Sequence record: NC_048178.1
Reading direction: 5' to 3' (one strand)
Length of the DNA: 41,912 nucleotides
Origin: Escherichia phage Sortsne
How positions within the stretch are numbered: position 1 is the first letter of the stretch; every line of letters starts with the position of its first letter. The translations under genes were made by a program, and so were the position numbers. Below the pieces are notes generated by a model. The model made no database searches and was not told the origin of the DNA. It saw only the letters and a program-made list of their open reading frames with translations. Positions 14,931 to 27,572 of the stretch are shown piece after piece.

Positions 14931-15650
14931 ATGGAATTTTCAACGGATAAAGGTCAGATCGTCCCGGCAATGGTTAAGGCTCGCCTGGCGATGAAAAGCG
15001 AAGTTAAAAAGAATACCGAAAACCGCCATCTGGGTAACTGGTACGCGAATTTAGAGAGTTTCCTGGACACTATCCGCCCGGCGCTGGAAGCCAACGGCCT
15101 GATCGTTATCCAGTCGCCGCTCGCCACGGTAGAAAAAGCGAATATGCTCGTCCTGCCGCTGGAGACGATGATCCTCCATGAGTCCGGCGAATACATGACC
15201 GCCGTTATGGAAATGCCGATCAGCTTCGGCAAGGGCGCACAGGCCCACAGCGTCGGATCGGCTATCACGTATGCCCGCCGTTACCACATTTCCGCGCTGT
15301 TCGGTGTGGCCCAGTCCGACGACGACGGTAACGCCACCAGAAAATCCGCCCGCCAGTGGATCGGGGATCTGGAGTTGATCGAGGACCTCGACAAGCTCAA
15401 AGAAGCCGTGGCCCACGTGGTCCACACGCTGGCCGATGATAGCGCGAGCGTGAAGGTCGTCCGCGAGTGGCACATTACGCGCCAGGCCCAGCTTAAGGCC
15501 GCGACCGCCAACGGCTTTAATCCCGCTTCTGTTGTGAAGAAGAAAAAAGCCGCCGATAATGCTCCGGCACAAGAACAGCCCGCCGTCGTAACGGAGCCGG
15601 AAGTGGACGCCCCGGCGGTGGAACAAAAACCGAATATTGAGGACTTCTAA
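14931..15650 (+). CDS. erf: Erf-family single-strand annealing protein
   Basis: [18 protein letters not shown] motif typical of the Erf family; followed by SSB. Confidence 0.8.
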
Positions 15651-15652
15651 GC

Positions 15653-16198
15653 ATGGCATCACGCGGCGTAAACAAGGTGATTCTGGTCGGCAACCTGGGA
15701 CAAGATCCCGAAGTGCGTTATATGCCGTCCGGCGGAGCGGTGGCGAACATCACGATCGCCACGTCCGAAAGCTGGCGCGATAAGCAAACGGGCGAACAAA
15801 AGGAGGTCACGGAGTGGCATCGGGTCGTATTGTTCGGGAAGCTGGCCGAAGTCGCCGGGGAGTACCTGCGCAAAGGGTCACAGGTTTACATCGAGGGCCA
15901 GCTTAAGACGCGCAAGTGGACGGACCAGCAAGGCGTCGAGAAGTACACGACGGAGGTCGTCGTGAACGTCGGCGGTACGATGCAAATGCTCGGCGGGAAA
16001 CGTGAAGGCGGTCAGTCTGGGGGGAATGGTGGCCCGACTCACTCCGGCGGTGGCAATTCTCGCCAATCTCCGGGCCGTAGCGCGCCGCAAAACCAAAATA
16101 CGGGCAAGGGTAGCGGGTCAGGGTCTGCGCCTCGTGGTGGCGCTTCTGGGGCGTCTAACGAGCCGCCGCAAGATTTCGACGATGATATCCCGTTTTAA
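15653..16198 (+). CDS. ssb: single-stranded DNA-binding protein
   Basis: N-terminal OB-fold ([35 protein letters not shown]), Gly-rich linker and C-terminal acidic tail DDDIPF. Confidence 0.9.
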
Positions 16199-16205
16199 TT
16201 AACTA

Positions 16206-16245
16206 ACAGGCCCCTCCGGGGGCCAGATCCTCCCAGGGGTCGAAG
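16206..16245 (+). repeat. conserved intercistronic element, copy 2 (hairpin GGCCCC-UCCG-GGGGCC plus CCCAGGGGTCGAAG leader)
   Basis: Near-identical to 3461-3498. Confidence 0.6.
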
Positions 16246-16686
16246 ATGAAACAATGCTCAATCTGTCGAACCATGAAGCCGTTAGAGGACTTCCACAGGA
16301 ACAAGCGCCAGAAGGACGGAAGGGATCGGCGCTGCCGGACGTGTAAGAGCGCCTATTGCAAGGAGCGCTATCACGGAGATCCAGACCATAAGGAGAAGAT
16401 CATCGCCCAGGTGAAGGAGTACCAGGCGGGGCCGGGGCGGGAGAAGTCGAACGCCACAAAGTCGGCCTATCATTCGAAGCATCCGAAGAAGCGACACGCC
16501 CACAATCTGGTCCGTAACGCTCTGAGGCGCGGAGAGCTAACGAGGGGGCCGTGTGAGGTCTGCGGCGTCGAGAAGGTAGTGGGCCACCATGACGACTACG
16601 ATCGACCGTTAGACGTGCGCTGGCTCTGCGAGAAGCATCACAAAGCCTGGCATCTGGTCCACGGTGAAGCGCTTAATCCCGATTGA
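16246..16686 (+). CDS. Cys/His-rich zinc-binding protein (possibly HNH-like)
   Basis: CSICR...CRTCK and CEVCG...HHDDY...WLCEKHH clusters; preceded by conserved hairpin plus leader. Confidence 0.45.
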   Translation: MKQCSICRTMKPLEDFHRNKRQKDGRDRRCRTCKSAYCKERYHGDPDHKEKIIAQVKEYQAGPGREKSNATKSAYHSKHPKKRHAHNLVRNALRRGELTRGPCEVCGVEKVVGHHDDYDRPLDVRWLCEKHHKAWHLVHGEALNPD

Positions 16687-16711
16687 CGTATATCACTAAT
16701 TAATTAATAAT
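16683..16711 (+). promoter_or_regulatory. promoter TTGACG-N17-AATAAT upstream of Cro-like HTH gene, with TATCAC motifs
   Basis: TATCACTAATTAATTAATAATCACGG spans spacer and start region. Confidence 0.45.
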
Positions 16712-16729
16712 CACGGAGACGTTAACAAA

Positions 16730-16957
16730 ATGATGGAGCCTATGATGGCGCAAAAATTAAAGCCTGTTTGCCTCGTGAAAGAAGTCCGCGAAGCGAAGGG
16801 CGTCAAACAGAAAGACCTCGCGGAAGCGACTGGCATCCTCCAGCAACGTTTAAGCTGCTATGAGAACGGCCACGATCTCCCGTCTGTAACTAACCTCTGC
16901 CGCCTTGCTGTAGCGCTGGAGGTTTCCATTAACGATCTGATCGAGTACGGAGTGTAA
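16730..16957 (+). CDS. XRE-family helix-turn-helix regulator (Cro-like)
   Basis: 75 aa; GVKQKDLAEATGILQQRLSCYENG is a classic XRE HTH; own promoter carries TATCAC motifs. Confidence 0.7.
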   Translation: MMEPMMAQKLKPVCLVKEVREAKGVKQKDLAEATGILQQRLSCYENGHDLPSVTNLCRLAVALEVSINDLIEYGV

Positions 16958-16958
16958 T

Positions 16959-17204
16959 GTGGAGAATAAAGCCCAGCCTATGACCGGGGCCGATATCAAA
17001 GGCTATCGAACATTGAACGAAGCCGAAAAAAAGGCAATGAATGACCTGAAAGAGACGAGCCGCTATTTTATCGCCACGCTCGATCAGTTCCCGGACATTC
17101 TGCCGGACGTCGATCGCCGCTGGTTAGCTCGCGCCCGTACTGCAATGCAAGACGCTTGCATGTTTGGCTGTCGCGCGGTAGCAAGACCGGACGATGATTG
17201 TTAA
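16959..17204 (+). CDS. hypothetical protein
   Basis: GTG start with GGAG RBS 8 nt upstream; ends just before bidirectional terminator. Confidence 0.4.
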   Translation: MENKAQPMTGADIKGYRTLNEAEKKAMNDLKETSRYFIATLDQFPDILPDVDRRWLARARTAMQDACMFGCRAVARPDDDC

Positions 17205-17221
17205 ACCGGAATCGAGAGACG

Positions 17222-17252
17222 AGAAAGGGGCCAATTAAGGCCCCTTTTTTTA
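17222..17252. terminator. bidirectional intrinsic terminator between recombination operon and tailspike
   Basis: AAAGGGGCC-AATTAA-GGCCCCTTT plus T-run; convergent gene ends. Confidence 0.8.
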
Positions 17253-19625
17253 TGGTCCGCCAGTGATAGGCGGGCGGGTCTGGATCTGCTTATACATCCT
17301 GATCTGAGTCTCCGCCGGGATCGCCGTCTGGATGGCGTCCGCGATATCGACCACGATCGGCGCGCCGGAGTCACTCGGCGGCGTCTGGTACGGAGGGCGG
17401 ACGACCGTCGTCACGAGGTCAGCGCCACCAGCGCCAGCTTTCGGAATGACGATCCGCGTCCCAGGGGACAGCATGGTGGTATAGAGCCACGGCGATCCGG
17501 TAGAGGTCCCGTTAGGCGTTAACCACTGCGTGATCGACTTCTGGCCCACGCTCGCGGCCATGATCTTCGCCTGGTTCCCGGTCGGGAAGTACGCGCCAGC
17601 CTCCACGACGAGGTAAGGCTTAAGCCCCACGATCCCGTTAGGTCCGTTAGCCGGATCGTTGCCGCCGTAGTCGTAAGTCCAGACCAGATCGCCGCGGTCG
17701 AACTCGCGGCCACAGGGGAAGAAGTTGCCATATCCGCCGTGGGCCGTGATATCCGGGAAAAACTGTTTAGACACGTTTCCCAGCATAGCGCCCAGCGAGC
17801 CGTCGATGTTGACATACATCCGGGCCTCAATATTGGAATTGACAATATTGATATTGCTGTAACGGCACTTGCTCCACGCCTGCGTCGTCGGGTTCCGGCT
17901 GTTAACGTTGACCATGTTCAGGACGGATTTAGTCCTGATATATTCCCCGTTCGAGGTGGTCCCGCCGCTGGAGTCGTCGCCCACCGCGTCCAGTTCCCAG
18001 CATTGAACGTTAAACATATCAAGCTGAGTCGCCACGCCGAAGATCGTCAGTTTGTAACAGTCGATATTCTCCAGTTTTACCCGGTTATCGTGGGGGGATC
18101 GGTTAACGCCCGGCGTCGGGTCGCCACGGTCAGCGGCCACAGGGCAGTAAACACGGCCCGTTTTCGTGCGGACGTTGCGGATCGTATAGTTGCGCGGAGA
18201 GGACAGACGCGGCGGCCCCCATTCCATATGGATAATGCGGAGATCGTGGACGTCGGTCGAGGCGTTGGTGACAGGCTCCCCGTCCACGCCGTCGATCACG
18301 AAGTCTTTACAGCCCGACGTGTAGATCCCGGCGGTGGTGATGCCAGTCCCCACGGACATATTCACATCCGGGTTAACGGTCACATTCTGGATCGTGAAGT
18401 CGCGCCCCATTTCAACGTGAATACACTGTTTACACTGGTTAACGAGAACGTTACGGATCGTGAAGTTGCGCGCGTAGTTCTCGTCAGGCAGATCCCAGCC
18501 ATAAGGGCCTTTACCCGCGATACCGATCCCCAGGCCCCAGTTAGAAGCGAAGTTGCCGGGGTTAATGCCGTTGATGTTGTCGAGGAGGATATTTTCGATA
18601 ACGCAACCATTTTCAAAGCATTGATGGACCACGTTTAGCTCGATCCCGTCGCCCTGCATGTTAACAAATGCGAGGTTGCGGAAGATGCCGCGAGACATAA
18701 ACGCATTGCCGCCCTGGTGAATGATCCCGTTATAGCCGTTCGTAAACAGGCATCCGTCCATCTCGATCGTTCCCCAGATCTGAGGACCGCCGGACTGTAC
18801 GCCCTGGATGTTGACATGAGAGTTATTGCTCCCCCCAGGGATGCCGTCATACCAACAATCAAACATCCGCACGTCGCCGCCGTCATGGCGCATACGGTGG
18901 CCGTTACGGCCTAACACGTTTCGTAAGGTCGTATTCTGACACCACATCGAACGACCGCGCCACGTACCGCCGATCACCTCGCAGTTAACAAAGCGGGGAT
19001 CGTTGCCCGTCAGCGTCCAGTCGCCACCACGGATCACGATGTTACTCGCGGTAAGGATGCCGTTAGTCGTGCCTTTCCAGCCATGCGCCCAGACTTCGAG
19101 GCCGTTCGCGCTGGCGTAGTCAAACATCGCCTGTAAAGCCTGCGTTACGCTGGTGTATTCCGGCTTGCCGACGAAGTTCCACGGCGTCACGTAGCCGTTT
19201 AGCTGCTCCTGCACGTTGCCGACTGGCGTCCCGACATAGCTCGCGCCCTTCCCGGAGATCAGGAGGCTCCACATCTGCGCCGGGTCGTATTCGAACAGGT
19301 TCCCGAAATAGTATTGTTGGACGTCGTTACGGTCGTAAACGGCCATAGACGCCTCGATCTTCGTGACCAGCTTCACCACTTGACCATTCCAGATCGGGAA
19401 GCCGACGACGTTCGTCCGTACAGGCTGCGGGATAGGGGTCAGGGTTAGATCCTCGTTCTCGACGTAGATCTGGACCTGGTTCTCCGGGTTCGTCGGGTCG
19501 GTGTCGGCCTTTCCTGCGTAGATCTTCCCGTCCACCAGCGAGGCGAATCGGTCCTTACGAAAGAACGGTTGCGACGGCATCCCTAACGTGCTGAATACCT
19601 CAAGTTGTGCCATGAATCGCTCCAT
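17250..19625 (-). CDS. tailspike protein (P22-type N-terminal head-binding domain plus beta-helix receptor-binding/depolymerase domain)
   Basis: N-terminus GKIYAGKADTDPTNPENQVQIYVENED...NGQVVKLVT...SMAVYD closely parallels the P22 tailspike N-domain as recalled; the rest has beta-helix-like repeats. Confidence 0.85.
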   Translation of the reverse strand: MERFMAQLEVFSTLGMPSQPFFRKDRFASLVDGKIYAGKADTDPTNPENQVQIYVENEDLTLTPIPQPVRTNVVGFPIWNGQVVKLVTKIEASMAVYDRNDVQQYYFGNLFEYDPAQMWSLLISGKGASYVGTPVGNVQEQLNGYVTPWNFVGKPEYTSVTQALQAMFDYASANGLEVWAHGWKGTTNGILTASNIVIRGGDWTLTGNDPRFVNCEVIGGTWRGRSMWCQNTTLRNVLGRNGHRMRHDGGDVRMFDCWYDGIPGGSNNSHVNIQGVQSGGPQIWGTIEMDGCLFTNGYNGIIHQGGNAFMSRGIFRNLAFVNMQGDGIELNVVHQCFENGCVIENILLDNINGINPGNFASNWGLGIGIAGKGPYGWDLPDENYARNFTIRNVLVNQCKQCIHVEMGRDFTIQNVTVNPDVNMSVGTGITTAGIYTSGCKDFVIDGVDGEPVTNASTDVHDLRIIHMEWGPPRLSSPRNYTIRNVRTKTGRVYCPVAADRGDPTPGVNRSPHDNRVKLENIDCYKLTIFGVATQLDMFNVQCWELDAVGDDSSGGTTSNGEYIRTKSVLNMVNVNSRNPTTQAWSKCRYSNINIVNSNIEARMYVNIDGSLGAMLGNVSKQFFPDITAHGGYGNFFPCGREFDRGDLVWTYDYGGNDPANGPNGIVGLKPYLVVEAGAYFPTGNQAKIMAASVGQKSITQWLTPNGTSTGSPWLYTTMLSPGTRIVIPKAGAGGADLVTTVVRPPYQTPPSDSGAPIVVDIADAIQTAIPAETQIRMYKQIQTRPPITGGP

Positions 19626-19651
19626 TAAAAAGGGGGCCTAAGCCCCCGTTA

Positions 19652-22600
19652 TTATTGCTGCTCGTCGGCTGCTGCTGCCCTGCCTGCTCCGCCACCTCCG
19701 CCAGCAAGGAAGCCCACGATCCCGGCCCGGCTGATCGCGGCCTGCTCGTCCGGCGTCATGGAGGCGATCAGCGCCTTCCACTCCGGGGAGTTAGCGGCGG
19801 CTTGTTCAGCCTCATTGACGAAGGTCCGGCCCGCCGGGGTTAGCTTGCCGGAACTCTGCGCCGCTGCCGCCTGGAGAAGTTTATTAAAGTTTCCCCCAGA
19901 AAGCACGTTATCCGCCAGCACAGATCGAGGGACGCGGGTCGCCCGGCTTGCTGCCTGCGCTGCGGACAATGCGGCGTTACCTGCCGGGCCTAACGTGTAC
20001 AGCGCGGCGGCATGTTTCCCCAGGAAGCCAGCGGCCCCGTACAGCTTGGACATTACGCCACCAGCGCCGGGATCGTTAAATCGCTTCATAAACTCACTGA
20101 TCGATCCGGTCGAGGTGGTGAATCGCTGGGCGCGATCGATGCCCTGAGCCACGCGGTAAATCTGCATAAAGCGGCGTTGTTGCTCGCGGGGTAAATGCTT
20201 CATTACGGAGCCTAACGTCCCGTTAGCCTGGGCGGTGCGATACCAGTCCACAAAGCCCGGAATGGCGAAGTTATTCCGCGCGCTACGTGCGCCCAGGGTA
20301 CGCTCCAGCGCGTTAGCCACTACGTCGGACTTGAGGCTGTCCGGGGTTGCGGCCATCAGCTTGTCCCAGTCCCTCGCGCTGCCGCCCTTCTTGCCCAGGT
20401 TCAGGATCGCACTCTGCACTTTCCCGGTGATCGAGTTGTCGAGGTTTTTCCCCAGGACTTCGAGGGCCTGAGTCTCCAGGTCCTTACGGCGTTTAACAAG
20501 CTGTTTCCCCACATTCCAGTCGTCCGCCGCGCCATACTGGGCCGCGACTCGCTCCTGGTCGTCAGTCAGGCGGGCATAAAGCTGTTTAAGCTGCGCCGGG
20601 ACTTCATCCTTAAACGGGCCGTTTTTCTTGTTCAGCGCCTCGCCGACCTGCTTCCGAAGGGTGTCCAGTCGGGCGTAAGTCGGGATCGTCGAAACACTCT
20701 GATCAGGGAGTCCCGTCACTGGGTCCACCTTCCCAGGCTTCGGAGCCATCCAGTCGAGCGCCTTTTTCTCTGCTGCGGAAAGGTACTCGTCCCCGCCTAA
20801 CTCGTCAGCCTTCGCCGTCAGATAATCCACGGTGCTGTCCGGCCTTACTTCGGCGTTGCGGGGGATCTTGGCGCTCACGGCGTTATAAGCCTTTTCCGCC
20901 TCGTCGCCCAGTCCGTCGATAATGGCGCGGGTGCGGGCGGCAAACGCCTGATCGATGGTCTGCGCGTTCATGCTGGTCATGCTGTCGATCAGATCGTCGG
21001 CCTTCTCGCTTAAACGCGCGATCCCGTTTAACTGCTGCGTTTCCAGGTTGGAGCCTTTGGCGCTAACAAGCTGCTGGATCGTGCTGCGGAAATTGGTATC
21101 ACGAGCATAAGCCGCCGGGGTCAGTTGGTCCTCAATCCCCAGATCGCGGGCGGTTTTCATCAGCTTTTTATCGACGTCGGCCATGTTCGCCAGATCGATC
21201 GCCTCGTCAGACGCGCGGAGCGTCTCACCGTTCGCGCCCTGTACGTTACGATCGGGGGTGAGTCGGAACTTGCTCGCATCACGCGCCACAGCGTCGGAAA
21301 TGCCCGCCTCGGACGCCTGGGTGGATCGTGCTGCATCTGCCGCCGCGTCTGCACCAGCCCCACCAGCGGCCCCAGCGCCTTCACCAGCGCCCCGGACGGC
21401 CTGCCACAGCTTACCAGCCCCGCCGATGATAGCTCGGCCCACAGCCTCGCCAGCGGGCGCTAGTGCGATGTTGGTCAGCGTCTCCTCCGGGTCCCCACGG
21501 CCAGCGGCCACCGCACCAGGAACGGCGCGAGCCGCCGGAGCGGCTACCCAGCGTTGGACGGCATCGGCGACGCGGGTCCCGAATTGAGCGACGTCCGGCG
21601 CGTCACGCACGATCCCCATAAGCTCCTCGGCTGCTGCGGCCTTACGCGGCCCCGGCAACGGCGCGAGCATATCGCCGATCAGGGTCCCGATCTGCGCGTA
21701 TTTGTCCGTCGGCCCCTCAAATCCGGGAATCCCCCCAGGGGTGATAGTCGGCGCTTGGGTGCTCTCGTCCACAATCCCCAGCCCCTTCCCGGCATCGGTC
21801 ACGGCGTTGGAGATCATGTTCGCCAGCGAGATCGGCGTGTTCAGGAGGTCGATCCCGGTCTGGGCCACGCCTCGCGCTGCCTGTTCGACGCTGCCGCCTA
21901 ACTTCCGCCAGTTTTCGGCGGCTTCGGCGTTAGGGTCGGTTTGTCCGGGGAGATTAGCTCCGCCCGGCTCTCCGTTACCGTTCGGCGCTGCCGCCCCTTG
22001 TGCGCCATCAGATCCCGCTTGATTAGGTGCATTGCCAGCGGCGACGGCTGCGACTTGTTGATCGGCCCCTCCGGCTCCGGCGGCTGCTCCATCTCCTCCA
22101 GTTCGGGGGGAATATTCCCCGAATTGATCGAATACATTACCAGACTGAGACGAGCCGCCAGCGCGGGCGCTGGTTGCACGTTGAACAGGTTCAGCGCTAC
22201 CGCCAGGCCCTCGGCCAGTCCACTCATTAAAACGTTCATCCACATATTGACGCCCCTCCGGGCCAGGTTGTGCCTGTCCCGCGATCTGTTTATCTACATT
22301 GCCGGGGCCGTCGTGGTAAGCCTGGAGCGCGAGGCCCCAGTCTCCGTAACGCTGGTACATCTGGGAAAGGTACTGCGCCCCGGCGTCAGCCTGGAGCGCG
22401 GGATCGCGCTGTAGCTCGTTCCAGTTGTACCCCATACCCTCCGCCGTTGGCCTCATGACCTGAGTCAAGCCATAAGCGCCAGCGGAAGAACGCGCGGAGG
22501 TCGGATCAGCTTCGCCGCCCGTCTCCTTGCTCGCCAATGCCTGCATGATGCCAGCGGGTAGTCCCCATTTAGCCCCGGCGCTCTCAAGTAGATCAGCATA

Positions 22601-22699
22601 GCCGTCGCCCGTCGATCCCGGTTGCGTAGGAATCTGATTAGGGAGCGCCGTCGCAGATTTCGGCATGTTCTGATCGAATTGGTCGAATACGTTAGCCAT
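19652..22699 (-). CDS. ejection/internal virion protein with N-terminal lytic transglycosylase (SLT) domain
   Basis: 1015 aa; SLT motifs ALASKETGG, GAYGLTQVM, AYHDGPGNV; long Gly/Ala-rich helical remainder. Confidence 0.8.
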   Translation of the reverse strand: MANVFDQFDQNMPKSATALPNQIPTQPGSTGDGYADLLESAGAKWGLPAGIMQALASKETGGEADPTSARSSAGAYGLTQVMRPTAEGMGYNWNELQRDPALQADAGAQYLSQMYQRYGDWGLALQAYHDGPGNVDKQIAGQAQPGPEGRQYVDERFNEWTGRGPGGSAEPVQRATSARAGGSSQSGNVFDQFGEYSPRTGGDGAAAGAGGADQQVAAVAAGNAPNQAGSDGAQGAAAPNGNGEPGGANLPGQTDPNAEAAENWRKLGGSVEQAARGVAQTGIDLLNTPISLANMISNAVTDAGKGLGIVDESTQAPTITPGGIPGFEGPTDKYAQIGTLIGDMLAPLPGPRKAAAAEELMGIVRDAPDVAQFGTRVADAVQRWVAAPAARAVPGAVAAGRGDPEETLTNIALAPAGEAVGRAIIGGAGKLWQAVRGAGEGAGAAGGAGADAAADAARSTQASEAGISDAVARDASKFRLTPDRNVQGANGETLRASDEAIDLANMADVDKKLMKTARDLGIEDQLTPAAYARDTNFRSTIQQLVSAKGSNLETQQLNGIARLSEKADDLIDSMTSMNAQTIDQAFAARTRAIIDGLGDEAEKAYNAVSAKIPRNAEVRPDSTVDYLTAKADELGGDEYLSAAEKKALDWMAPKPGKVDPVTGLPDQSVSTIPTYARLDTLRKQVGEALNKKNGPFKDEVPAQLKQLYARLTDDQERVAAQYGAADDWNVGKQLVKRRKDLETQALEVLGKNLDNSITGKVQSAILNLGKKGGSARDWDKLMAATPDSLKSDVVANALERTLGARSARNNFAIPGFVDWYRTAQANGTLGSVMKHLPREQQRRFMQIYRVAQGIDRAQRFTTSTGSISEFMKRFNDPGAGGVMSKLYGAAGFLGKHAAALYTLGPAGNAALSAAQAASRATRVPRSVLADNVLSGGNFNKLLQAAAAQSSGKLTPAGRTFVNEAEQAAANSPEWKALIASMTPDEQAAISRAGIVGFLAGGGGGAGRAAAADEQQ

Positions 22700-24018
22700 T
22701 AAAGCCCCTCCGGTAAGAATCCGTATTTTTCCTTAAACTGCTGCTTAACGCTAGGGGTCGGGTTCGAATACAGATAATTAATGGCCGCGCTCGCGTTGGT
22801 CGGGTCCATCCCCCCAGACGAAAGCTGTCCGATTGCCGATTGTTTGGCGTCGTCCTGCTGGATATCCCGGCGGTAGGACTCCACGCGCCCGCCCTGCGAC
22901 TTCTCGATCGCGTCCTTGCCCTTGCTGAGTGCGGTCACGTAGCGCGTCATAACGTCCTTAAGCTGCTGCTCGTTCATGGTGCGCGGGTCTGCGTTGATCA
23001 GCGCCTGAGCGGCTGCGCGGCCCTCCTGCTCGGTAACGGGACCAGTACCGCGTAAAGACTGAATACCCGCGACGCGGGCCTGATCTTTAAGCTGGTTAAA
23101 CTGATTCATGATCTCCGCCGTGGCATCGCCGCCGCCAGTCACGAAAGAGGCCCCACGGTTCAGCGCGCCCAGGTTGCCCGTCACGTAGGCCAGATCCTTA
23201 CGCTGGAGGAGTCGCTGGGCCTGGTCGATCGCCGTGGTGATCGGGGCGAGTTGCGTCTCGTAGGTCTGCAAAAAGTCGCGCTTCGTGTTCAGGCTGTCCT
23301 GTTGCATTTTTTGCTGCTGCTGCGCGTACTTCTGGCGCTCAATATCGTTCCTTTCCTGCGAGATCCGCGTGTTGAGGCGCTCGGTCTGGAGGCCGATATA
23401 TTTCAGGTTACGATCCGCCGCTTTCGCTGAGGCGTCCAGGTCCTGCCCCCGGATCGTGGTCTGGTTCTTCATCGTCTCTTTGGCGTAGTCCAGTTGATCC
23501 TTACTGGTATTGCTCGCCAGGTGGAGAGCCTGCACCGAACGACGGAAGCCCTCCGGGTCAGACGTGGCCGACTGGAGCGCGCGCTGAGGATCGATCCCCA
23601 TCGCCTGGAGTGCCTGCGCGTTCTGCTGCACAAATGCCGCCGCCTGCTCCGGTCCCTGCGAGAGAGCGACGTCCGCCTGGCTGGCAAGGCTTGCGCCCTG
23701 CTGCTGGCGCATCGTGTCCAGAAGGCCCAGGCGCTTCTGTAACGCCTCGATCTGGTTCGGGTACTTGTACGCCAGATCCTGGAGTTTCGACGGGTCCCCG
23801 GCTGCGGCCTGCCAGTCAGCATTAAATTGCTTCATCTGCTCGGCCTGGAGTCCTGCCTGTTTCATGGCCTGGCCCCGGATCTGGTTCTCCTGAAATTGCG
23901 CCGTGTTCTGCTGGATCTTGCCGTAGTTGTTCAGCGTGTCTTGTGCGCCCTGTTGAATGATCCCGATATTCTGCGCAAAAGATCCGATGTTGGGATCTGC
24001 TCCGAAGATAGCCGCCAT
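22699..24018 (-). CDS. ejection protein (gp20-like by position)
   Basis: 439-aa Gln-rich coiled-coil protein in the P22-like ejection cluster; 1-nt start/stop overlaps. Confidence 0.55.
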   Translation of the reverse strand: MAAIFGADPNIGSFAQNIGIIQQGAQDTLNNYGKIQQNTAQFQENQIRGQAMKQAGLQAEQMKQFNADWQAAAGDPSKLQDLAYKYPNQIEALQKRLGLLDTMRQQQGASLASQADVALSQGPEQAAAFVQQNAQALQAMGIDPQRALQSATSDPEGFRRSVQALHLASNTSKDQLDYAKETMKNQTTIRGQDLDASAKAADRNLKYIGLQTERLNTRISQERNDIERQKYAQQQQKMQQDSLNTKRDFLQTYETQLAPITTAIDQAQRLLQRKDLAYVTGNLGALNRGASFVTGGGDATAEIMNQFNQLKDQARVAGIQSLRGTGPVTEQEGRAAAQALINADPRTMNEQQLKDVMTRYVTALSKGKDAIEKSQGGRVESYRRDIQQDDAKQSAIGQLSSGGMDPTNASAAINYLYSNPTPSVKQQFKEKYGFLPEGL

Positions 24019-24668
24019 TAGATAAAGCTCCCGAACATGTTACCGAAAGAGTTAACGTCTTGCGCTGCCCCCTGAGAGAGCGCGTTCTGGCTGTACCCGG
24101 CCACCTGCCACGGCAAGGCCGCTTTAGCCGCGTTAACGTTGCCTTTCTGAGACTGGAGGCCCAGAAGGGTGTTAGTGCCTTGTGCTGCGGTCGCAGACTG
24201 CGCGCCAGCGCCGGACAGGCCCACGTTAACAAGCCCCATAAGCTGGTTATACATATCCTGCTGCTGGGCCGTCTGCTGCGCGAGATAGTTCTGGCCTAAC
24301 GTCGGCGCGATCGATGCCAGCGCGTTATTAGTGGCCGAACTCCCCAGCCCGCCCGTCGCTTCCGCTGCGGCCAGTTGCGATCGTCGTGCTGCCTCCTCCG
24401 ACTGCGCGAACTCCTGCCCGCCGTAATACTGGGAGAGCGACTTCTCTCGATCGATCGGCTGGCCCGCCAGCGCCACAAGGTCGGGTAGTGCATTGGTCCC
24501 GGCTTCACGGAATGGAGACAGCCAGGCGTCCTGTCGCTCCATTAGATCGCGCTGCCAGTCCATCTGTTTGTCGAGGCTTTTCTGTTGCTGCTTCGCCGCC
24601 TTGTTCGCGCCGATGCCGCCTAAGATACCCCCGACGGCGTTACCGATCCCACTGATAGCTCCGCCCAT
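24018..24668 (-). CDS. ejection protein (gp7-like by position)
   Basis: 216 aa, Gly-rich N-terminus and Gln/Ala-rich body; assigned by position. Confidence 0.5.
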   Translation of the reverse strand: MGGAISGIGNAVGGILGGIGANKAAKQQQKSLDKQMDWQRDLMERQDAWLSPFREAGTNALPDLVALAGQPIDREKSLSQYYGGQEFAQSEEAARRSQLAAAEATGGLGSSATNNALASIAPTLGQNYLAQQTAQQQDMYNQLMGLVNVGLSGAGAQSATAAQGTNTLLGLQSQKGNVNAAKAALPWQVAGYSQNALSQGAAQDVNSFGNMFGSFI

Positions 24669-25050
24669 TTGGTCCTCTCCTCAAGAAAATAATTTCGGCC
24701 TTTTGACCGCCCACTAATTCTACCTGCTCCGGCGGATATTCAACAAATCCGACTTTCTTCACGACGTTGCGCGCGTGTCGGTGGCTCGCCAGTACCGGGA
24801 CGCGGATCTGGTACTCGCCCCAGTGCTCCAGGAAGGCCAGACACGCCTCGCGGGACCGTCTGCGGCTGGGGGGAGTCATTGCCATATGACCGTCGATCCC
24901 GCCTTCATCGTTCGCCATGATGGCAAATACGCAACAACGATCCCACAGGAAATATTTTGCGACCGCCTCGCGCGGCCACTCCGGGAGGCCCCAGGCGTGG
25001 AGTAATGCCACGCCGGAGTCCGGGATTAGCTCGATCATTTCTCCACTCAT
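24640..25050 (-). CDS. hypothetical protein (gp14-like position)
   Basis: 136-aa ORF, ATGA coupling with tail-needle gene. Confidence 0.4.
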   Translation of the reverse strand: MSGEMIELIPDSGVALLHAWGLPEWPREAVAKYFLWDRCCVFAIMANDEGGIDGHMAMTPPSRRRSREACLAFLEHWGEYQIRVPVLASHRHARNVVKKVGFVEYPPEQVELVGGQKAEIIFLRRGPNGRSYQWDR

Positions 25051-25634
25051 GGCGTCGGGTTCACTCCTGCCAGTCCGTGGGACATAACGAGGGCCACCAG
25101 CGCGGCGATCGTCTGTCGCGCCTCCACCAGCCCGTCCGCCAGTGCCTGGATCTCCGCCTGCGAGTAGGTCGCCCCGGCGGTATATGCGGCGCTTCCGTTA
25201 ATGCCGCCCTTCTTGAGCGTACCGCTCGCCGCCGTCCAGCCTAATTGACGCCCGCCCATCACTTTGACGTTATTCACGCGGATCTCGGTCCCGATGGACA
25301 GCGGCCCGTCCATCACCTGGAGCGTGGTCTTGTTCAGTTTGACGCTGTTCACGTCCAGCGACACGATCGATCCGCTCAAGCCTTCGACCTCGGCGCTCAA
25401 TTGCGAGATCTGCCCGGCCTGCTGGTTCAGGGTGGTGTCCTGTTGGTCGTTGCGGGTCTTTTGCTCGTTCGCCACCTTTAAGGCGTCGCTGGCGTTCTCC
25501 GTCGCCTCGCCAGCATTGCGTCCAGCCTGCGCCGAAAGTTGGTTAAGTCTCACCAGCCAGTCGCGGAAGGCGACCGGAGTCCCTGGCGGTAAGCTGTTCG
25601 GGTTTAGCTGCTGCGGGGTGTAGTTTGCGGCCAT
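25047..25634 (-). CDS. tail needle protein (P22 gp26-like)
   Basis: GWTAASGTLKKG...YSQAEIQALADGLVEARQTIAALVALVMSHGL parallels the P22 gp26 C-terminal region as recalled; heptad-rich middle. Confidence 0.75.
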   Translation of the reverse strand: MAANYTPQQLNPNSLPPGTPVAFRDWLVRLNQLSAQAGRNAGEATENASDALKVANEQKTRNDQQDTTLNQQAGQISQLSAEVEGLSGSIVSLDVNSVKLNKTTLQVMDGPLSIGTEIRVNNVKVMGGRQLGWTAASGTLKKGGINGSAAYTAGATYSQAEIQALADGLVEARQTIAALVALVMSHGLAGVNPTP

Positions 25635-25649
25635 AAGATCCTCCCAGGG

Positions 25650-27107
25650 TTAGCTCACACGGACACGAGCGCGCGAGAGAGTCGCCGGGGTTGCGCCGAC
25701 GGTGCGGATTTTGAACGCGAGAGCCGTCCGGCATCGCCCGATCTTCTTGAGGATAACGCGCTTTAGCCACTGCTGCGGCGTGTTGTAGTCGATCAGGATC
25801 TCCTGTCCGAACGCGCTCCCGTCCTCGGTGGCGGATAGCCACATCCGGCTCGTAACGCTGTCGCCGCCCACGCTCGCGTCGATCTCGAAGTCGGACAGGA
25901 TCATGTTCTCAAACGGCATAAGCGGCGTATAGAGGACGATCTCCTGGTCGGCCCCGTACTGGGAGCAAGTGGTCATATCGAACTCGCCCAGAATGGCCTC
26001 GCGCTTGTCGCCTACGGTGATCTTGCTGCCTTCGTTGCAGTAGTCGATCGCGCGGTGCGGGCCGCTGGCGTTCTGTACGCCCGTTTTAATAATCGACCAT
26101 ACCGGGACGCCTTGCGCCTGGCTAACGGGGTGATCGTAGACGAGCGTCTGGTCCGGTAAGTGGACAATAAGAAGTTTATGGCTTTCAAAGCTCACAGCCT
26201 CCAGTCGGGCGTCCTGTAATTGGGCCACGGAGTACGCGGAGAGGATCTTCTTAATCTGGATCGAGGCCAGATCAGACCAGTCGCCGCCGCCGGGGTTCAT
26301 CAGCGCGATCGTGTATTCGCCCACGAAAGGCGACGTGATAAAGGCGAAGCTGTTCAGGTACTGCGCCACCGTTTCACGGCCCAGCGTCCCGGCTTCGACC
26401 GTATAGGACGGCTGGCTGGCGTAGACGTTCTGATCGTCCCCGGTCAGGCCGAAGAACTCGATCGAGGCGGTCCCGAAGCACAGGACATAATCGCGCCACG
26501 CCCTGATCGCCACGATGCCGTCCGGCATGGACTCCGCACGATACGCCGGGGCCGTCTTGTCCGGGTGGCTCTCGTCGGTAAGGTCGGAGATCCAGAAGGT
26601 GTCCGATCCCTTCACGCTGAAAATGTAGCGCTGTCGGAGGTGGCACACGTCGTTAATATCGCCCCACGTGTATTGTGGGTTATCGACGTCCGTCCCGGAG
26701 TCGCGCGGCCAGTTGGCGAAGGTTTTACGGGTCCCGTCATAGCCGATCAGGATAAGCTGATTTTGGGAGACGATCCCCTGGCTGGTGCGGCTATGCGCCA
26801 TCGGGGTTCGATCTTCGGCTGAGATATCCGCGATCGGGTTGCCGTTGTTGTACAGCTTGCCGCCCATCACGCGGTAGGCCGTGTTTGAGACGGTGTTCCA
26901 GTGGACGCCACGAGAGATCCCCGCAACGTCCAGCGACTTACGGAGGCCGGGCATCATGCGCATGTAGCCGTTGCCGCCCTTAATCTGGCGCGCGATCGCC
27001 AGCATGTTCTCCGGTAAGCGGGTGATCCAGTCGAAGTCCGTCCGGCTGCGGCCATCACCGAAAACAATCGGCAAATTCACGACCTGTCCGCGTTCTGGTT
27101 GTTTCAT
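25650..27107 (-). CDS. tail accessory / head-completion protein (P22 gp10-like by size and position)
   Basis: 485 aa between gp4-like and needle genes. Confidence 0.55.
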   Translation of the reverse strand: MKQPERGQVVNLPIVFGDGRSRTDFDWITRLPENMLAIARQIKGGNGYMRMMPGLRKSLDVAGISRGVHWNTVSNTAYRVMGGKLYNNGNPIADISAEDRTPMAHSRTSQGIVSQNQLILIGYDGTRKTFANWPRDSGTDVDNPQYTWGDINDVCHLRQRYIFSVKGSDTFWISDLTDESHPDKTAPAYRAESMPDGIVAIRAWRDYVLCFGTASIEFFGLTGDDQNVYASQPSYTVEAGTLGRETVAQYLNSFAFITSPFVGEYTIALMNPGGGDWSDLASIQIKKILSAYSVAQLQDARLEAVSFESHKLLIVHLPDQTLVYDHPVSQAQGVPVWSIIKTGVQNASGPHRAIDYCNEGSKITVGDKREAILGEFDMTTCSQYGADQEIVLYTPLMPFENMILSDFEIDASVGGDSVTSRMWLSATEDGSAFGQEILIDYNTPQQWLKRVILKKIGRCRTALAFKIRTVGATPATLSRARVRVS

Positions 27108-27116
27108 CCTGCCCCC

Positions 27117-27572
27117 TTATTCCGCGCTGCCGTCGTCGTAAAATCGGCTATGCGCCCACGTTGATTGATTGCCCGCCCCGGTCGGCATATCGTTACGACG
27201 CTTGAGCGGCGGGACCTTGTAAAACTGGATCTTGATATCGTCCCATTTCTCCTTAAGGAGCGCCCGGACGTCTGGGGGGAGATCGCGCTGGTTGTCGATA
27301 AGCATCCGCTGGCCCAGCTTGAGCGCCAGGGCCTCCAGCGTCCACAGGTCCAGCCCGGAGTCCTCGTTCCCGTCCGGTACGCCGTCGGAGTTGGTGGTGA
27401 AGATATAGGGGAAGTCTAAGCCGTCGCGGATCTGCTCCGCCATGAGAGCCTCCAGATCAAACAGCCCATCCGTGATGGACTGTTGATCGGCTACCATTAG
27501 CGTTGCAGTCGAGGACAGACCAGCCCGGCGTAATGCCTGGTTTACGATCTGGATCTTCTGCAAGGTCGCCAT
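27117..27572 (-). CDS. tail accessory factor (P22 gp4-like)
   Basis: 151 aa; MPTGAGNQS and DLEALMAEQ segments resemble P22 gp4 as recalled. Confidence 0.65.
   Translation of the reverse strand: MATLQKIQIVNQALRRAGLSSTATLMVADQQSITDGLFDLEALMAEQIRDGLDFPYIFTTNSDGVPDGNEDSGLDLWTLEALALKLGQRMLIDNQRDLPPDVRALLKEKWDDIKIQFYKVPPLKRRNDMPTGAGNQSTWAHSRFYDDGSAE

What the first reader, a model, noticed from the sequence alone, without database searches (positions are those of the whole stretch)
17250..19625. Tailspike combines a P22-type N-terminal domain with a different beta-helix receptor module
The first roughly 110 aa track the P22 tailspike particle-binding domain closely as recalled, while the remainder has beta-helix-like repeats unlike the P22 endorhamnosidase. 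This indicates modular exchange of the receptor-binding/depolymerase domain and a host polysaccharide specificity that cannot be read from sequence.
Basis: partly seen in the sequence, partly recalled or inferred. Interest (0 to 1): 0.45.

Follow-up and report, generated by a model that had tools for sequence, protein, structure and literature searches.

The report
P22-type tailspike carrying a colanidase module
This gene is the tailspike of a P22-like short-tailed phage, almost certainly the published Escherichia phage Sortsne; a conserved anchor domain is joined to a beta-helix from the known phage family that degrades colanic acid, the slime capsule of E. coli, so it is real but ordinary.

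Summary
ORF 17250..19625 (-) encodes a 791-aa protein; the true start is probably the ATG at 19613. Residues 14-117 are a P22-type head-binding domain (Pfam PF09008, E 5e-34; 47% identical to P22, 52% to Sf6). The rest has no significant sequence match to the P22 endorhamnosidase.

The claim that specificity cannot be read from sequence does not hold. Residues 120-778 are homologous to the phi92 gp150 colanidase tailspike (PDB 6E0V: phmmer E 4e-59; Foldseek E 3e-37). They also match PHROG 6117 "colanic acid degradation" (E 3e-233), the NST1 colanic acid hydrolase (40% identity) and E. coli WcaM (E 3e-22).

The upstream genes form a complete P22-like virion module, so the anchor domain is native to this phage. 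Full-length relatives at 81-89% identity exist in sortkaff, IME279 and Kc237. More distant relatives (about 45%) are already annotated "tailspike colanidase".

Window length (41,912 bp) and GC (60%) match the published phage Sortsne, isolated on E. coli K-12.

Module exchange is real in this family: trees of the two domains disagree, and the nearest relatives by backbone carry a C-module only 52-55% identical. In this phage, however, the module looks vertically inherited under purifying selection.

No enzyme assay exists for this lineage. Verdict: already known, low interest.

The parts
17250..19625 (-). Tailspike gene. The ORF from the first ATG encodes 791 aa. The probable true start is the ATG at 19613, giving 787 aa.
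   Evidence: ORF listing. Relatives align from residue 5. GGAG at 19623-19620 lies 6 nt before the ATG at 19613. PHROG 6117 'colanic acid degradation', E 3e-233, covers aa 54-784.
19275..19586 (-). P22-type head-binding (particle-binding) domain, aa 14-117. It anchors the spike to the gp4/gp10 tail hub.
   Evidence: Pfam PF09008, E 4.9e-34. PDB phmmer matches to the Sf6 and P22 N-domains. 52% and 47% identity respectively. Foldseek match to 1lkt, TM 0.81 normalised to the target.
19026..19274 (-). Linker/neck and N-terminal cap of the beta-helix, aa 118-200. This is the zone where conservation with the closest backbone relatives starts to fall, so it is the likely recombination junction.
   Evidence: Low pLDDT (52-57) at aa 110-140 and short helices at 110-174 in the model. 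Identity to L003 is 72% here, against 80% in the N-domain and 35-61% beyond. Nucleotide identity profile.
17823..19100 (-). Right-handed parallel beta-helix of the colanidase/WcaM-like family, about aa 176-601. Predicted endo-glycosidase body.
   Evidence: phmmer to 6e0v (phi92 gp150), E 4e-59, over aa 120-778. Foldseek top hit 6e0v_A, E 2.8e-37, TM 0.76 normalised to the target. NCBIfam WcaM, E 3e-24, over aa 220-487. BLASTP to E. coli K-12 WcaM, E 3e-22.
18627..18659 (-). Motif MQGDGIELNVV (aa 323-333) containing the invariant D326, E329 and N331. Candidate catalytic acids.
   Evidence: These residues are invariant in all 39 family members aligned. They are also conserved in phi92 gp150 and in E. 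coli WcaM. A catalytic role is inferred, not shown.
18399..18434 (-). Motif CKQCIHVEMGRD (aa 398-409) containing the invariant Q400, H403 and E405. Second candidate active-site motif.
   Evidence: Invariant in 39 of 39 members. Conserved in gp150 and in WcaM.
17253..17822 (-). C-terminal domain, aa 602-791. It is also shared with phi92 gp150. Its function (trimer assembly or substrate binding) is inferred.
   Evidence: The gp150 alignment runs to aa 778. The model has pLDDT 76-98 here.
19627..19647 (-). Terminator-like hairpin GGGGGC-TTAG-GCCCCC followed by T5, between the gp16-like gene and the tailspike gene.
   Evidence: Pattern scan and the sequence itself. This is a consensus match only.
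17224..17249 (-). Hairpin GGGGCC-TTAATT-GGCCCC, flanked by an A-run and a T-run, directly after the stop codon. It looks like a two-way terminator between convergent genes.
   Evidence: Read directly from the sequence. It was not reported by the pattern scan.
25650..27572 (-). Homologues of the P22 tail hub proteins: gp4 (27117-27572) and gp10 (25650-27107). These are the docking partners of the N-terminal domain.
   Evidence: Pfam P22_Tail-4, E 1.7e-21, and Phage_stabilise, E 4e-139. PHROG adaptor and head-closure families.
19652..25634 (-). Needle (gp26-like), an unassigned 136-aa ORF (24640..25050, PHROG family of unknown function) and ejection proteins (gp7-, gp20- and gp16-like; the last carries an N-terminal SLT lytic transglycosylase domain). 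They lie immediately upstream of the tailspike gene, as in P22-like virion modules.
   Evidence: PHROG tail needle, DNA ejection and DNA transfer families. Pfam P22_gp7, Inj_translocase and SLT.

Best explanation
The gene encodes the tailspike of a P22-like podovirus of the genus Sortsnevirus. The window is almost certainly Escherichia phage Sortsne itself.

The N-terminal ~117 residues form the P22-type head-binding domain. This domain docks the spike onto the gp4/gp10 tail hub encoded a few genes upstream. P22 carries six trimeric spikes per virion; that number is assumed here, not shown.

After a flexible linker comes a beta-helix plus C-terminal domain of the colanidase family (phi92 gp150, NST1 enzyme, WcaM-like). 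The proposed mechanism is that the spike binds colanic acid, the Rcs-induced exopolysaccharide of Enterobacteriaceae, and cleaves it endolytically. The virion would then move through the capsule to the outer membrane. There the needle and the ejection proteins take over; the gp16-like protein carries a lytic transglycosylase domain.

Shown here: the domain architecture, the homologies, the fold, the conserved residues and the virion-module context.

Inferred: colanic acid as substrate, hydrolytic activity with D326/E329/E405 as the catalytic centre, trimeric state and copy number.
For: - Head_binding domain at E 4.9e-34.
- Homology to the phi92 gp150 colanidase over aa 120-778, E 4e-59. The AlphaFold2 model (pLDDT 85.3) has 6e0v_A as its best PDB match, E 2.8e-37.
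- PHROG 6117 'colanic acid degradation', E 3e-233.
- 40% identity over aa 122-775 to the NST1 colanic acid-degrading protein HM214492 and to the J8-65 tailspike.
- NST1 hydrolase activity on colanic acid was shown with recombinant enzyme (PMC9143390). [quoted passage not shown]
- Homology to WcaM of the E. coli K-12 colanic acid gene cluster. D326, E329, H403 and E405 are invariant in 39 family members and in WcaM.
- dN is low (0.061) at the same dS as the backbone, which indicates purifying selection on the module.
- A complete P22-like virion module lies upstream.
- Many phages with this tailspike type, including Sortsne, sortkaff, sortsyn, sortregn and Skarpretter, were isolated on E. coli K-12 MG1655. 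[quoted passage not shown]
- Three Kosakonia phages with colanidase-type spikes (Kc237, Kc166B, Kc261) all infect strain 042. Kc237 and Kc166B infect only 042 and 045, although their C-modules are only about 50% identical.
Against: - No assay exists for this protein or for any of its relatives at 45% identity or more. The characterised enzymes are only about 40% identical in the C-module.
- Beta-helix depolymerases can change specificity at that distance.
- The 88.6% identical IME279 spike belongs to a phage isolated on Klebsiella pneumoniae, whose capsule is usually not colanic acid.
- Colanic acid is made mainly at low temperature or under envelope stress, so its role as the obligatory receptor on K-12 is uncertain.
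- The very divergent C-module alleles (dN 0.4-0.47) in the closest backbone relatives are hard to explain if all of them cut the same polymer.
- The catalytic role of the invariant residues is not documented in any paper I could read.
Confidence: 0.8

Rival explanations
1. The fold and family are the same, but the substrate is a different polysaccharide: a colanic-acid-like capsule such as Klebsiella K108, a differently acetylated or pyruvylated variant, or another enterobacterial exopolysaccharide. The divergent alleles swapped between related phages would then encode different specificities.
For: - Only about 40% identity to the characterised colanidases.
- Near-identical spikes occur in phages isolated on E. 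coli, Klebsiella and Kosakonia.
- Kc237 has a narrow host range, 2 of 11 strains.
- The closest backbone relatives carry alleles that are only 52-55% identical, with saturated dS.
- A Klebsiella depolymerase catalogue lists 'colanidase-like' enzymes and cites K108 as colanic-acid-like.
Against: - Isolation on K-12 MG1655; PMC text describes the model E. coli strains it used as lacking O-antigen and capsules other than colanic acid.
- Homology to WcaM of the colanic acid gene cluster.
- Kc237 and Kc166B carry alleles only about 50% identical, yet lyse exactly the same two strains.
Confidence: 0.13
2. The C-module only binds its ligand. It would be an enzymatically inactive adhesin that kept the colanidase fold.
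For: No activity data exist for this lineage. Inactive beta-helix spikes are known in other phages (general knowledge).
Against: - The candidate acidic residues D326, E329 and E405, with H403, are invariant across 39 members, gp150 and WcaM.
- There is strong purifying selection, dN 0.061.
Confidence: 0.04
3. The whole protein is a diverged P22-type endorhamnosidase that recognises O-antigen.
For: The N-terminal domain is P22-like and the virion module is P22-like.
Against: - P22 tailspike chains align only over residues 13-113.
- The structural match of the full model to P22 is generic, TM 0.24.
- The best sequence and fold match by far is the gp150 colanidase.
Confidence: 0.01

Closest known systems
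Tailspikes of Sortsnevirus phages: Escherichia phage sortkaff (MN850581), Klebsiella phage vB_KpnS_IME279 (MF614100) and Kosakonia phage Kc237 (MW258710)
   Same: Full-length collinear homologues at 88.7%, 88.6% and 81.3% identity. They occupy the same position after the gp16-like gene. RefSeq labels the IME279 protein 'colanic acid degradation'.
   Different: - The N-domain is less conserved (76-79%) than the C-module (82-90%).
- The gene just downstream of the spike differs: an Acb2/Tad1-like gene here, a RyR-domain gene in sortkaff.
- None of these spikes has been characterised biochemically.
Phage phi92 gp150 colanidase tailspike (PDB 6E0V)
   Same: The beta-helix and C-terminal domain are homologous over aa 120-778 (E 4e-59), with the same fold (Foldseek E 2.8e-37) and shared GDxIELNVV and HVEMG motifs.
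   Different: - Foldseek gives 28% identity.
- phi92 is described as a myophage (PMC13450770). In ~150-kb phage genomes and contigs, homologues of this module carry different N-terminal anchor domains (PF18668/PF26208) instead of the P22 head-binding domain.
Phage NST1 colanic acid-degrading enzyme (HM214492) and the Bonnellvirus J8-65 tailspike colanidase
   Same: About 40% identity over aa 122-775. These are the experimentally supported colanidases.
   Different: They have no P22-type N-domain. J8-65 is a phiKMV-like podovirus (Autographiviridae) with another adaptor.
P22 gp9 and Sf6 gp14 tailspikes
   Same: The N-terminal head-binding domain is 47% (P22) and 52% (Sf6) identical. The gp4/gp10/gp26 hub context is the same.
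   Different: The receptor module differs. P22 and Sf6 carry O-antigen endorhamnosidase beta-helices, which show no significant sequence match to this protein.
E. coli WcaM (b2043), the last gene of the colanic acid cluster
   Same: 25% identity over 389 aa, E 3e-22. The candidate active-site motifs are conserved. The current Pfam family covering the phage module is named WcaM (PF27800).
   Different: WcaM is a 464-aa bacterial protein without a phage anchor and without the C-terminal ~190-residue domain. The score of 85 bits is far below the equivalog cutoff of 795 bits.

Membership tests
P22-type tailspike head-binding domain (Pfam PF09008) | Sequence match to the family model above the curated threshold | tested here: met
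   117.4 bits against a cutoff of 24, E 4.9e-34, covering aa 14-117 and profile positions 10-113 of 113.
P22-type tailspike head-binding domain (Pfam PF09008) | Fold of the solved P22/Sf6 N-terminal domain | tested here: met
   Foldseek matches to 1lkt_A (TM 0.81), 8eb7 (0.75) and 7sg7 (0.69-0.72), all normalised to the target. Model pLDDT is 80-88 over aa 31-110.
P22-type tailspike head-binding domain (Pfam PF09008) | The docking partners gp4 and gp10 are encoded in the same genome | tested here: met
   P22_Tail-4 at E 1.7e-21 and Phage_stabilise at E 4e-139, at 25650-27572.
P22-type tailspike head-binding domain (Pfam PF09008) | Physical attachment as a trimer to the tail hub | not testable with these tools
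   Needs virion cryo-EM or biochemistry.
Phage colanidase tailspikes (phi92 gp150 / NST1 enzyme; PHROG 6117; Pfam WcaM PF27800) | Sequence homology across the whole catalytic module | tested here: met
   - phmmer to 6e0v, E 4e-59, over aa 120-778.
- PHROG 6117, E 3e-233.
- All close homologues carry PF27800 in the precomputed annotation.
- PF27800 itself is not in the local Pfam copy, so it was not scored directly.
Phage colanidase tailspikes (phi92 gp150 / NST1 enzyme; PHROG 6117; Pfam WcaM PF27800) | Same three-dimensional fold as the solved colanidase | tested here: met
   6e0v_A is the top hit at E 2.8e-37, TM 0.76 normalised to the target, over 678 aligned columns.
Phage colanidase tailspikes (phi92 gp150 / NST1 enzyme; PHROG 6117; Pfam WcaM PF27800) | Conservation of the active-site residues | tested here: inconclusive
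   D326, E329, N331, H403 and E405 are invariant in 39 members, gp150 and WcaM. Which residues are catalytic is not documented in any source I could read.
Phage colanidase tailspikes (phi92 gp150 / NST1 enzyme; PHROG 6117; Pfam WcaM PF27800) | Endolytic degradation of colanic acid | not testable with these tools
   Needs the purified protein and colanic acid. It has been shown only for NST1 and gp150, which are about 40% identical.
P22 gp9 endorhamnosidase receptor module | Homology of the beta-helix to P22/Sf6 endorhamnosidases | tested here: not met
   P22 chains of 666-667 aa match only at residues 13-114. For Sf6, the stretch beyond the N-domain is non-significant. The full-length structural alignment has TM 0.24.
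Bacterial WcaM (NCBIfam TIGR04004 equivalog) | Score above the equivalog cutoff | tested here: not met
   85.5 bits against a cutoff of 794.6. The protein is a homologue of WcaM, not a WcaM orthologue.

The most novel reading that the evidence does not exclude
The strongly divergent colanidase-fold alleles that replace one another behind a conserved P22-type anchor in Sortsne-like phages are 52-57% identical, with dN 0.4-0.47 and saturated dS. They might not all be colanidases. They could encode distinct specificities for colanic-acid variants or for related enterobacterial capsules. The Sortsne allele would then be an uncharacterised specificity class, and the family would be a natural cassette system for retargeting P22-like virions.
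Probability: 0.1. Interest if true: 0.45.

Novelty: already known. Interest (0 to 1): 0.15.

Why it matters
Little is new here. The architecture (P22 head-binding domain plus colanidase module) is already captured by PHROG families and by GenBank/RefSeq annotations of related phages. The window itself appears to be a published genome.

It has some practical value.
- A colanidase-producing phage has been shown to help a second phage kill mucoid E. coli (PMC4179555).
- The Sortsnevirus allele is a distinct, strongly conserved variant that could be tested for these uses.
- The set of related phages with swapped C-modules behind a conserved anchor is a tidy natural example of tailspike cassette exchange, with a mapped junction at about aa 118-200.

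Tried and rejected
1. P22 endorhamnosidase similarity in the C-terminal part. Rejected: there is no significant sequence match beyond residue ~118 and only generic beta-helix structural similarity.

2. Recent horizontal acquisition of the C-module by this phage. This was suggested by the C-module being 90% identical to sortkaff while the backbone proteins are 73-86% identical. Rejected: synonymous divergence of the C-module (dS 0.63) equals that of the backbone (0.64-0.90). The high protein identity therefore reflects purifying selection. The replacement events are in the L002 and L003 lineages instead.

3. A sharp recombination breakpoint at the domain border, aa 117-120. The nucleotide profile shows a gradual fall between about aa 118 and 225, not a crisp edge.

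4. Fetching the presumed source record MK651787 to read its own annotation. It is not in the collection.

5. Reading Firozi et al. 2010 (PMC3465957) for the original NST1 characterisation. It is not held, so secondary sources were used.

6. A large E. coli receptor-screen preprint. It does not mention Sortsne-like phages.

7. Checking the spatial clustering of the invariant residues. The model coordinates are not exposed to scripts.

8. Local Pfam gives only a sub-threshold pectate-lyase-like hit for the C-module. The covering family, PF27800 WcaM, is newer than the local copy.
Full report
**1. The observation**

The minus-strand ORF at 17250..19625 exists and encodes 791 aa. Pfam places a Head_binding domain (PF09008, the P22 tailspike particle-binding domain) at aa 14-117. 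The E-value is 4.9e-34, with 117 bits against a threshold of 24.

A phmmer search of all PDB sequences aligns aa 13-123 to the Sf6 tailspike (E 4e-32). It aligns aa 19-118 to the P22 tailspike N-domain in seven distinct PDB sequences (E about 1e-22). Counting those alignments gives 52% identity to Sf6 and 47% to P22. The homology is certain, but "tracks closely" overstates it.

Full-length P22 chains match only through their first ~113 residues. The remainder therefore has no significant sequence match to the endorhamnosidase.

One correction applies. Homologues start at residue 5 of the ORF, and a GGAG lies 6 nt upstream of the second ATG at 19613. The real product is probably 787 aa, the same length as the nearest cluster representative P0001.

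**2. What the C-terminal part is**

Residues 120-778 align end to end with phage phi92 gp150 (PDB 6E0V) at E 4e-59. An AlphaFold2 model was built on 46 homologues (mean pLDDT 85.3) and shows a long beta-strand run from about aa 177 to 601, followed by a C-terminal domain. Its best PDB match by Foldseek is 6e0v_A, "colanidase tailspike protein gp150 of Phage Phi92" (E 2.8e-37, TM 0.76 normalised to the target). P22 and Sf6 appear only through the N-domain.

Further matches point the same way:
- PHROG 6117 "colanic acid degradation" matches at E 3e-233.
- tblastn against GenBank phages gives about 40% identity over aa 122-775 to the NST1 colanic acid-degrading protein (HM214492), to the J8-65 tailspike and to proteins of ~150-kb phages.
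- NCBIfam's WcaM model hits aa 220-487 at E 3e-24, far below the equivalog cutoff.
- A direct BLASTP against E. coli K-12 WcaM (b2043, fetched) gives 25% identity over 389 aa, E 3e-22. Three motifs are shared: QGDxIExNV, NWGxGIGxAG and CxQxIHVExG.
- In an alignment of 39 family members, D326, E329, N331, Q304, Q400, H403, E405, Y375 and R724 are invariant. They are also conserved in gp150 and WcaM.
- The current Pfam family covering this module in all homologues is PF27800, named WcaM. It is newer than the local Pfam copy, which explains the weak local result.

**3. Experimental anchors from the literature**

- Recombinant NST1 enzyme (HM214492) hydrolyses colanic acid and disperses the capsule (PMC9143390).
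- Phage J8-65 has a spike 87% identical to NST1. It makes expanding halos and lowers high-molecular-weight colanic acid (PMC4179555).
[quoted passage not shown] 2025, as cited in PMC13450770).
- Colanic acid can be a phage receptor (title of PMC6390001).
- I found no assay for this protein or for relatives at 45% identity or more.

**4. Genomic context**

The genes upstream on the same strand form a complete P22-like virion module:
- portal (P22_portal, E 3e-156), scaffold and coat (P22_CoatProtein);
- gp4 (P22_Tail-4) and gp10 (Phage_stabilise, E 4e-139);
- needle, then gp7, gp20 and a 1015-aa gp16-like protein with an N-terminal SLT lytic transglycosylase domain.

The P22-type anchor is therefore the native adaptor for this phage's own hub, not an imported oddity.

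Megablast places the window at about 79-80% nucleotide identity over about 80% of its first 25 kb with Kc237, IME279 and sortkaff; sortkaff and IME279 are classified in Sortsnevirus.

Olsen et al. list Escherichia phage Sortsne (MK651787) as 41,912 bp, GC 60%, Podoviridae, Sortsnevirus, isolated on E. coli K-12 MG1655 (PMC7552041). The window is 41,912 bp with GC 59.97%. It is therefore almost certainly that genome. The record is absent from the searchable collection.

Electron microscopy of the relative Kc237 shows short-tailed particles (PMC8402661).

**5. Modularity and exchange**

- 22 other PHROG families share only the first ~110-200 residues.
- The colanidase module occurs behind other anchors. 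These are PF18668/PF26208 in ~150-kb phage genomes and contigs, other N-termini in Bonnellvirus, and a tail-collar domain in Enterobacter chromosomal proteins.

Within the P22-like group, I compared gene-by-gene identities with six relatives.
- Two metagenome-assembled contigs are the closest backbones. L003 has coat 98.6%, gp7 98.6%, gp10 92% and gp16 85% identity; L002 is similar.
- Their C-modules are nevertheless only 52-55% identical to the window's.
- Sortkaff and Kc237 have more distant backbones (73-87% for coat, gp4, gp10, gp7, gp20 and gp16-like), but their C-modules are 90% and 82% identical.

Neighbour-joining trees of the N-domain and the C-module are incongruent. P0003 has the N-domain closest to the window, but its C-module pairs with P0006, whose N-domain is about 50% identical to the window's. 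P0005's C-module groups with the Kc166B type.

Synonymous divergence settles the direction of exchange.
- Against sortkaff, the C-module has dS 0.63, the same as the backbone (0.64-0.90), with low dN (0.061).
- Against L002 and L003, the backbone has dS 0.24-0.85 (0.24-0.55 for L003), while the C-module is saturated (dS 1.3-1.4, dN 0.40-0.47).

The window therefore seems to keep the allele shared with the sortkaff, IME279 and Kc237 spikes under purifying selection. The nearest relatives have replaced theirs.

The junction is diffuse, between about aa 118 and 225 on the left and the stop codon on the right.

**6. Mechanism**

Following the well-studied P22 system, the spike docks through its N-domain on the gp4/gp10 hub.

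The beta-helix module would then bind colanic acid and cleave it endolytically. This lets the virion reach the outer membrane, where the needle and ejection proteins act.

D326, E329 and E405, with H403, are the best candidates for the catalytic centre.

The substrate assignment rests on three lines of evidence.
- Homology to characterised colanidases and to WcaM.
- Isolation of many such phages on K-12. PMC text describes the model E. coli strains it used as lacking O-antigen and capsule except for stress-induced colanic acid.
- The shared host pattern of three Kosakonia phages with colanidase-type spikes.

Cautions remain:
- identity to the tested enzymes is only about 40%;
- a nearly identical spike occurs in a phage isolated on Klebsiella;
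- colanic acid is expressed conditionally;
- it is unexplained why such divergent alleles would be exchanged if all of them cut the same polymer.

**7. Verdict**

The feature is real and the two-module description is correct. It is a known kind of protein: relatives are already annotated "tailspike colanidase" or "colanic acid degradation", and the genome itself appears to be published.

The statement that the specificity cannot be read from sequence is not supported.

Interest is low. The residual novelty is that the Sortsnevirus allele is biochemically untested, and that the allele swaps among close relatives might reflect different specificities.

Noticed in passing
window 16959..17204 (+): An 81-aa gene is convergent with the tailspike gene and lies immediately 3' of it. 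It matches the Pfam Acb2/Tad1 hairpin domain (PF24729, E 5.8e-16), so it is a likely anti-CBASS/Thoeris cyclic-nucleotide sponge. The slot varies among relatives: a RyR-domain gene in sortkaff, Phage_gp49_66 plus RyR in L002, and an Acb2/Tad1 gene (53% identical) in L003.
   Followed up: partly
window 19611..19625 (-): The first ATG of the ORF (19625) overlaps a GGAG that sits 6 nt upstream of a second ATG at 19613. Homologues begin at that second Met. The annotated start should probably be 19613.
   Followed up: yes
window 19652..22699 (-): The gp16-like ejection protein is 1015 aa and carries an N-terminal SLT lytic transglycosylase domain (aa 38-143, E 6.9e-18). It also has a long Ala/Gly-rich region. 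The region has the highest GC in the window, 0.65-0.66.
   Followed up: no
window 19627..19647 and 17224..17249: GC-rich hairpins with T-runs bracket the tailspike gene on both sides. The upstream one looks like an intrinsic terminator between the ejection-protein gene and the tailspike gene. The spike may therefore depend on read-through or have its own transcription signal.
   Followed up: no
window 14931..25050, several genes: The backbone itself is mosaic between genera. orf136 (24640..25050), the gp16-like protein and SSB are closer to Murrayvirus phages (Lumpael, IME_EC2: 80-92%) than to sortkaff (52-74%). The ERF recombinase is only 40% identical to sortkaff but 73-75% to L002, Lumpael and IME_EC2.
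   Followed up: partly
whole window: Window length (41,912 bp) and GC (59.97%) equal those published for Escherichia phage Sortsne (MK651787/NC_048178), the type species of Sortsnevirus, host E. coli K-12 MG1655. That record is not in the searchable phage collection.
   Followed up: partly
window 16246..16686 (+): A 146-aa protein with Cys-rich N-terminal CxxC pairs and a C-terminal [24 protein letters not shown] stretch. By eye it resembles an HNH endonuclease. Pfam gives only a weak Stc1 hit (E 0.004). The IME_EC2 homologue is annotated 'baseplate wedge protein', which looks wrong.
   Followed up: no
L002 10001..12367 and L003 10001..12367: Two metagenome-assembled Sortsne-like contigs (SRR26624006, SRR30129090) have near-identical coat proteins (97-99%) but tailspike C-modules of other allele types. 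These pair with P0006 and with the Kc166B group respectively. They are natural cassette swaps behind the same anchor.
   Followed up: yes
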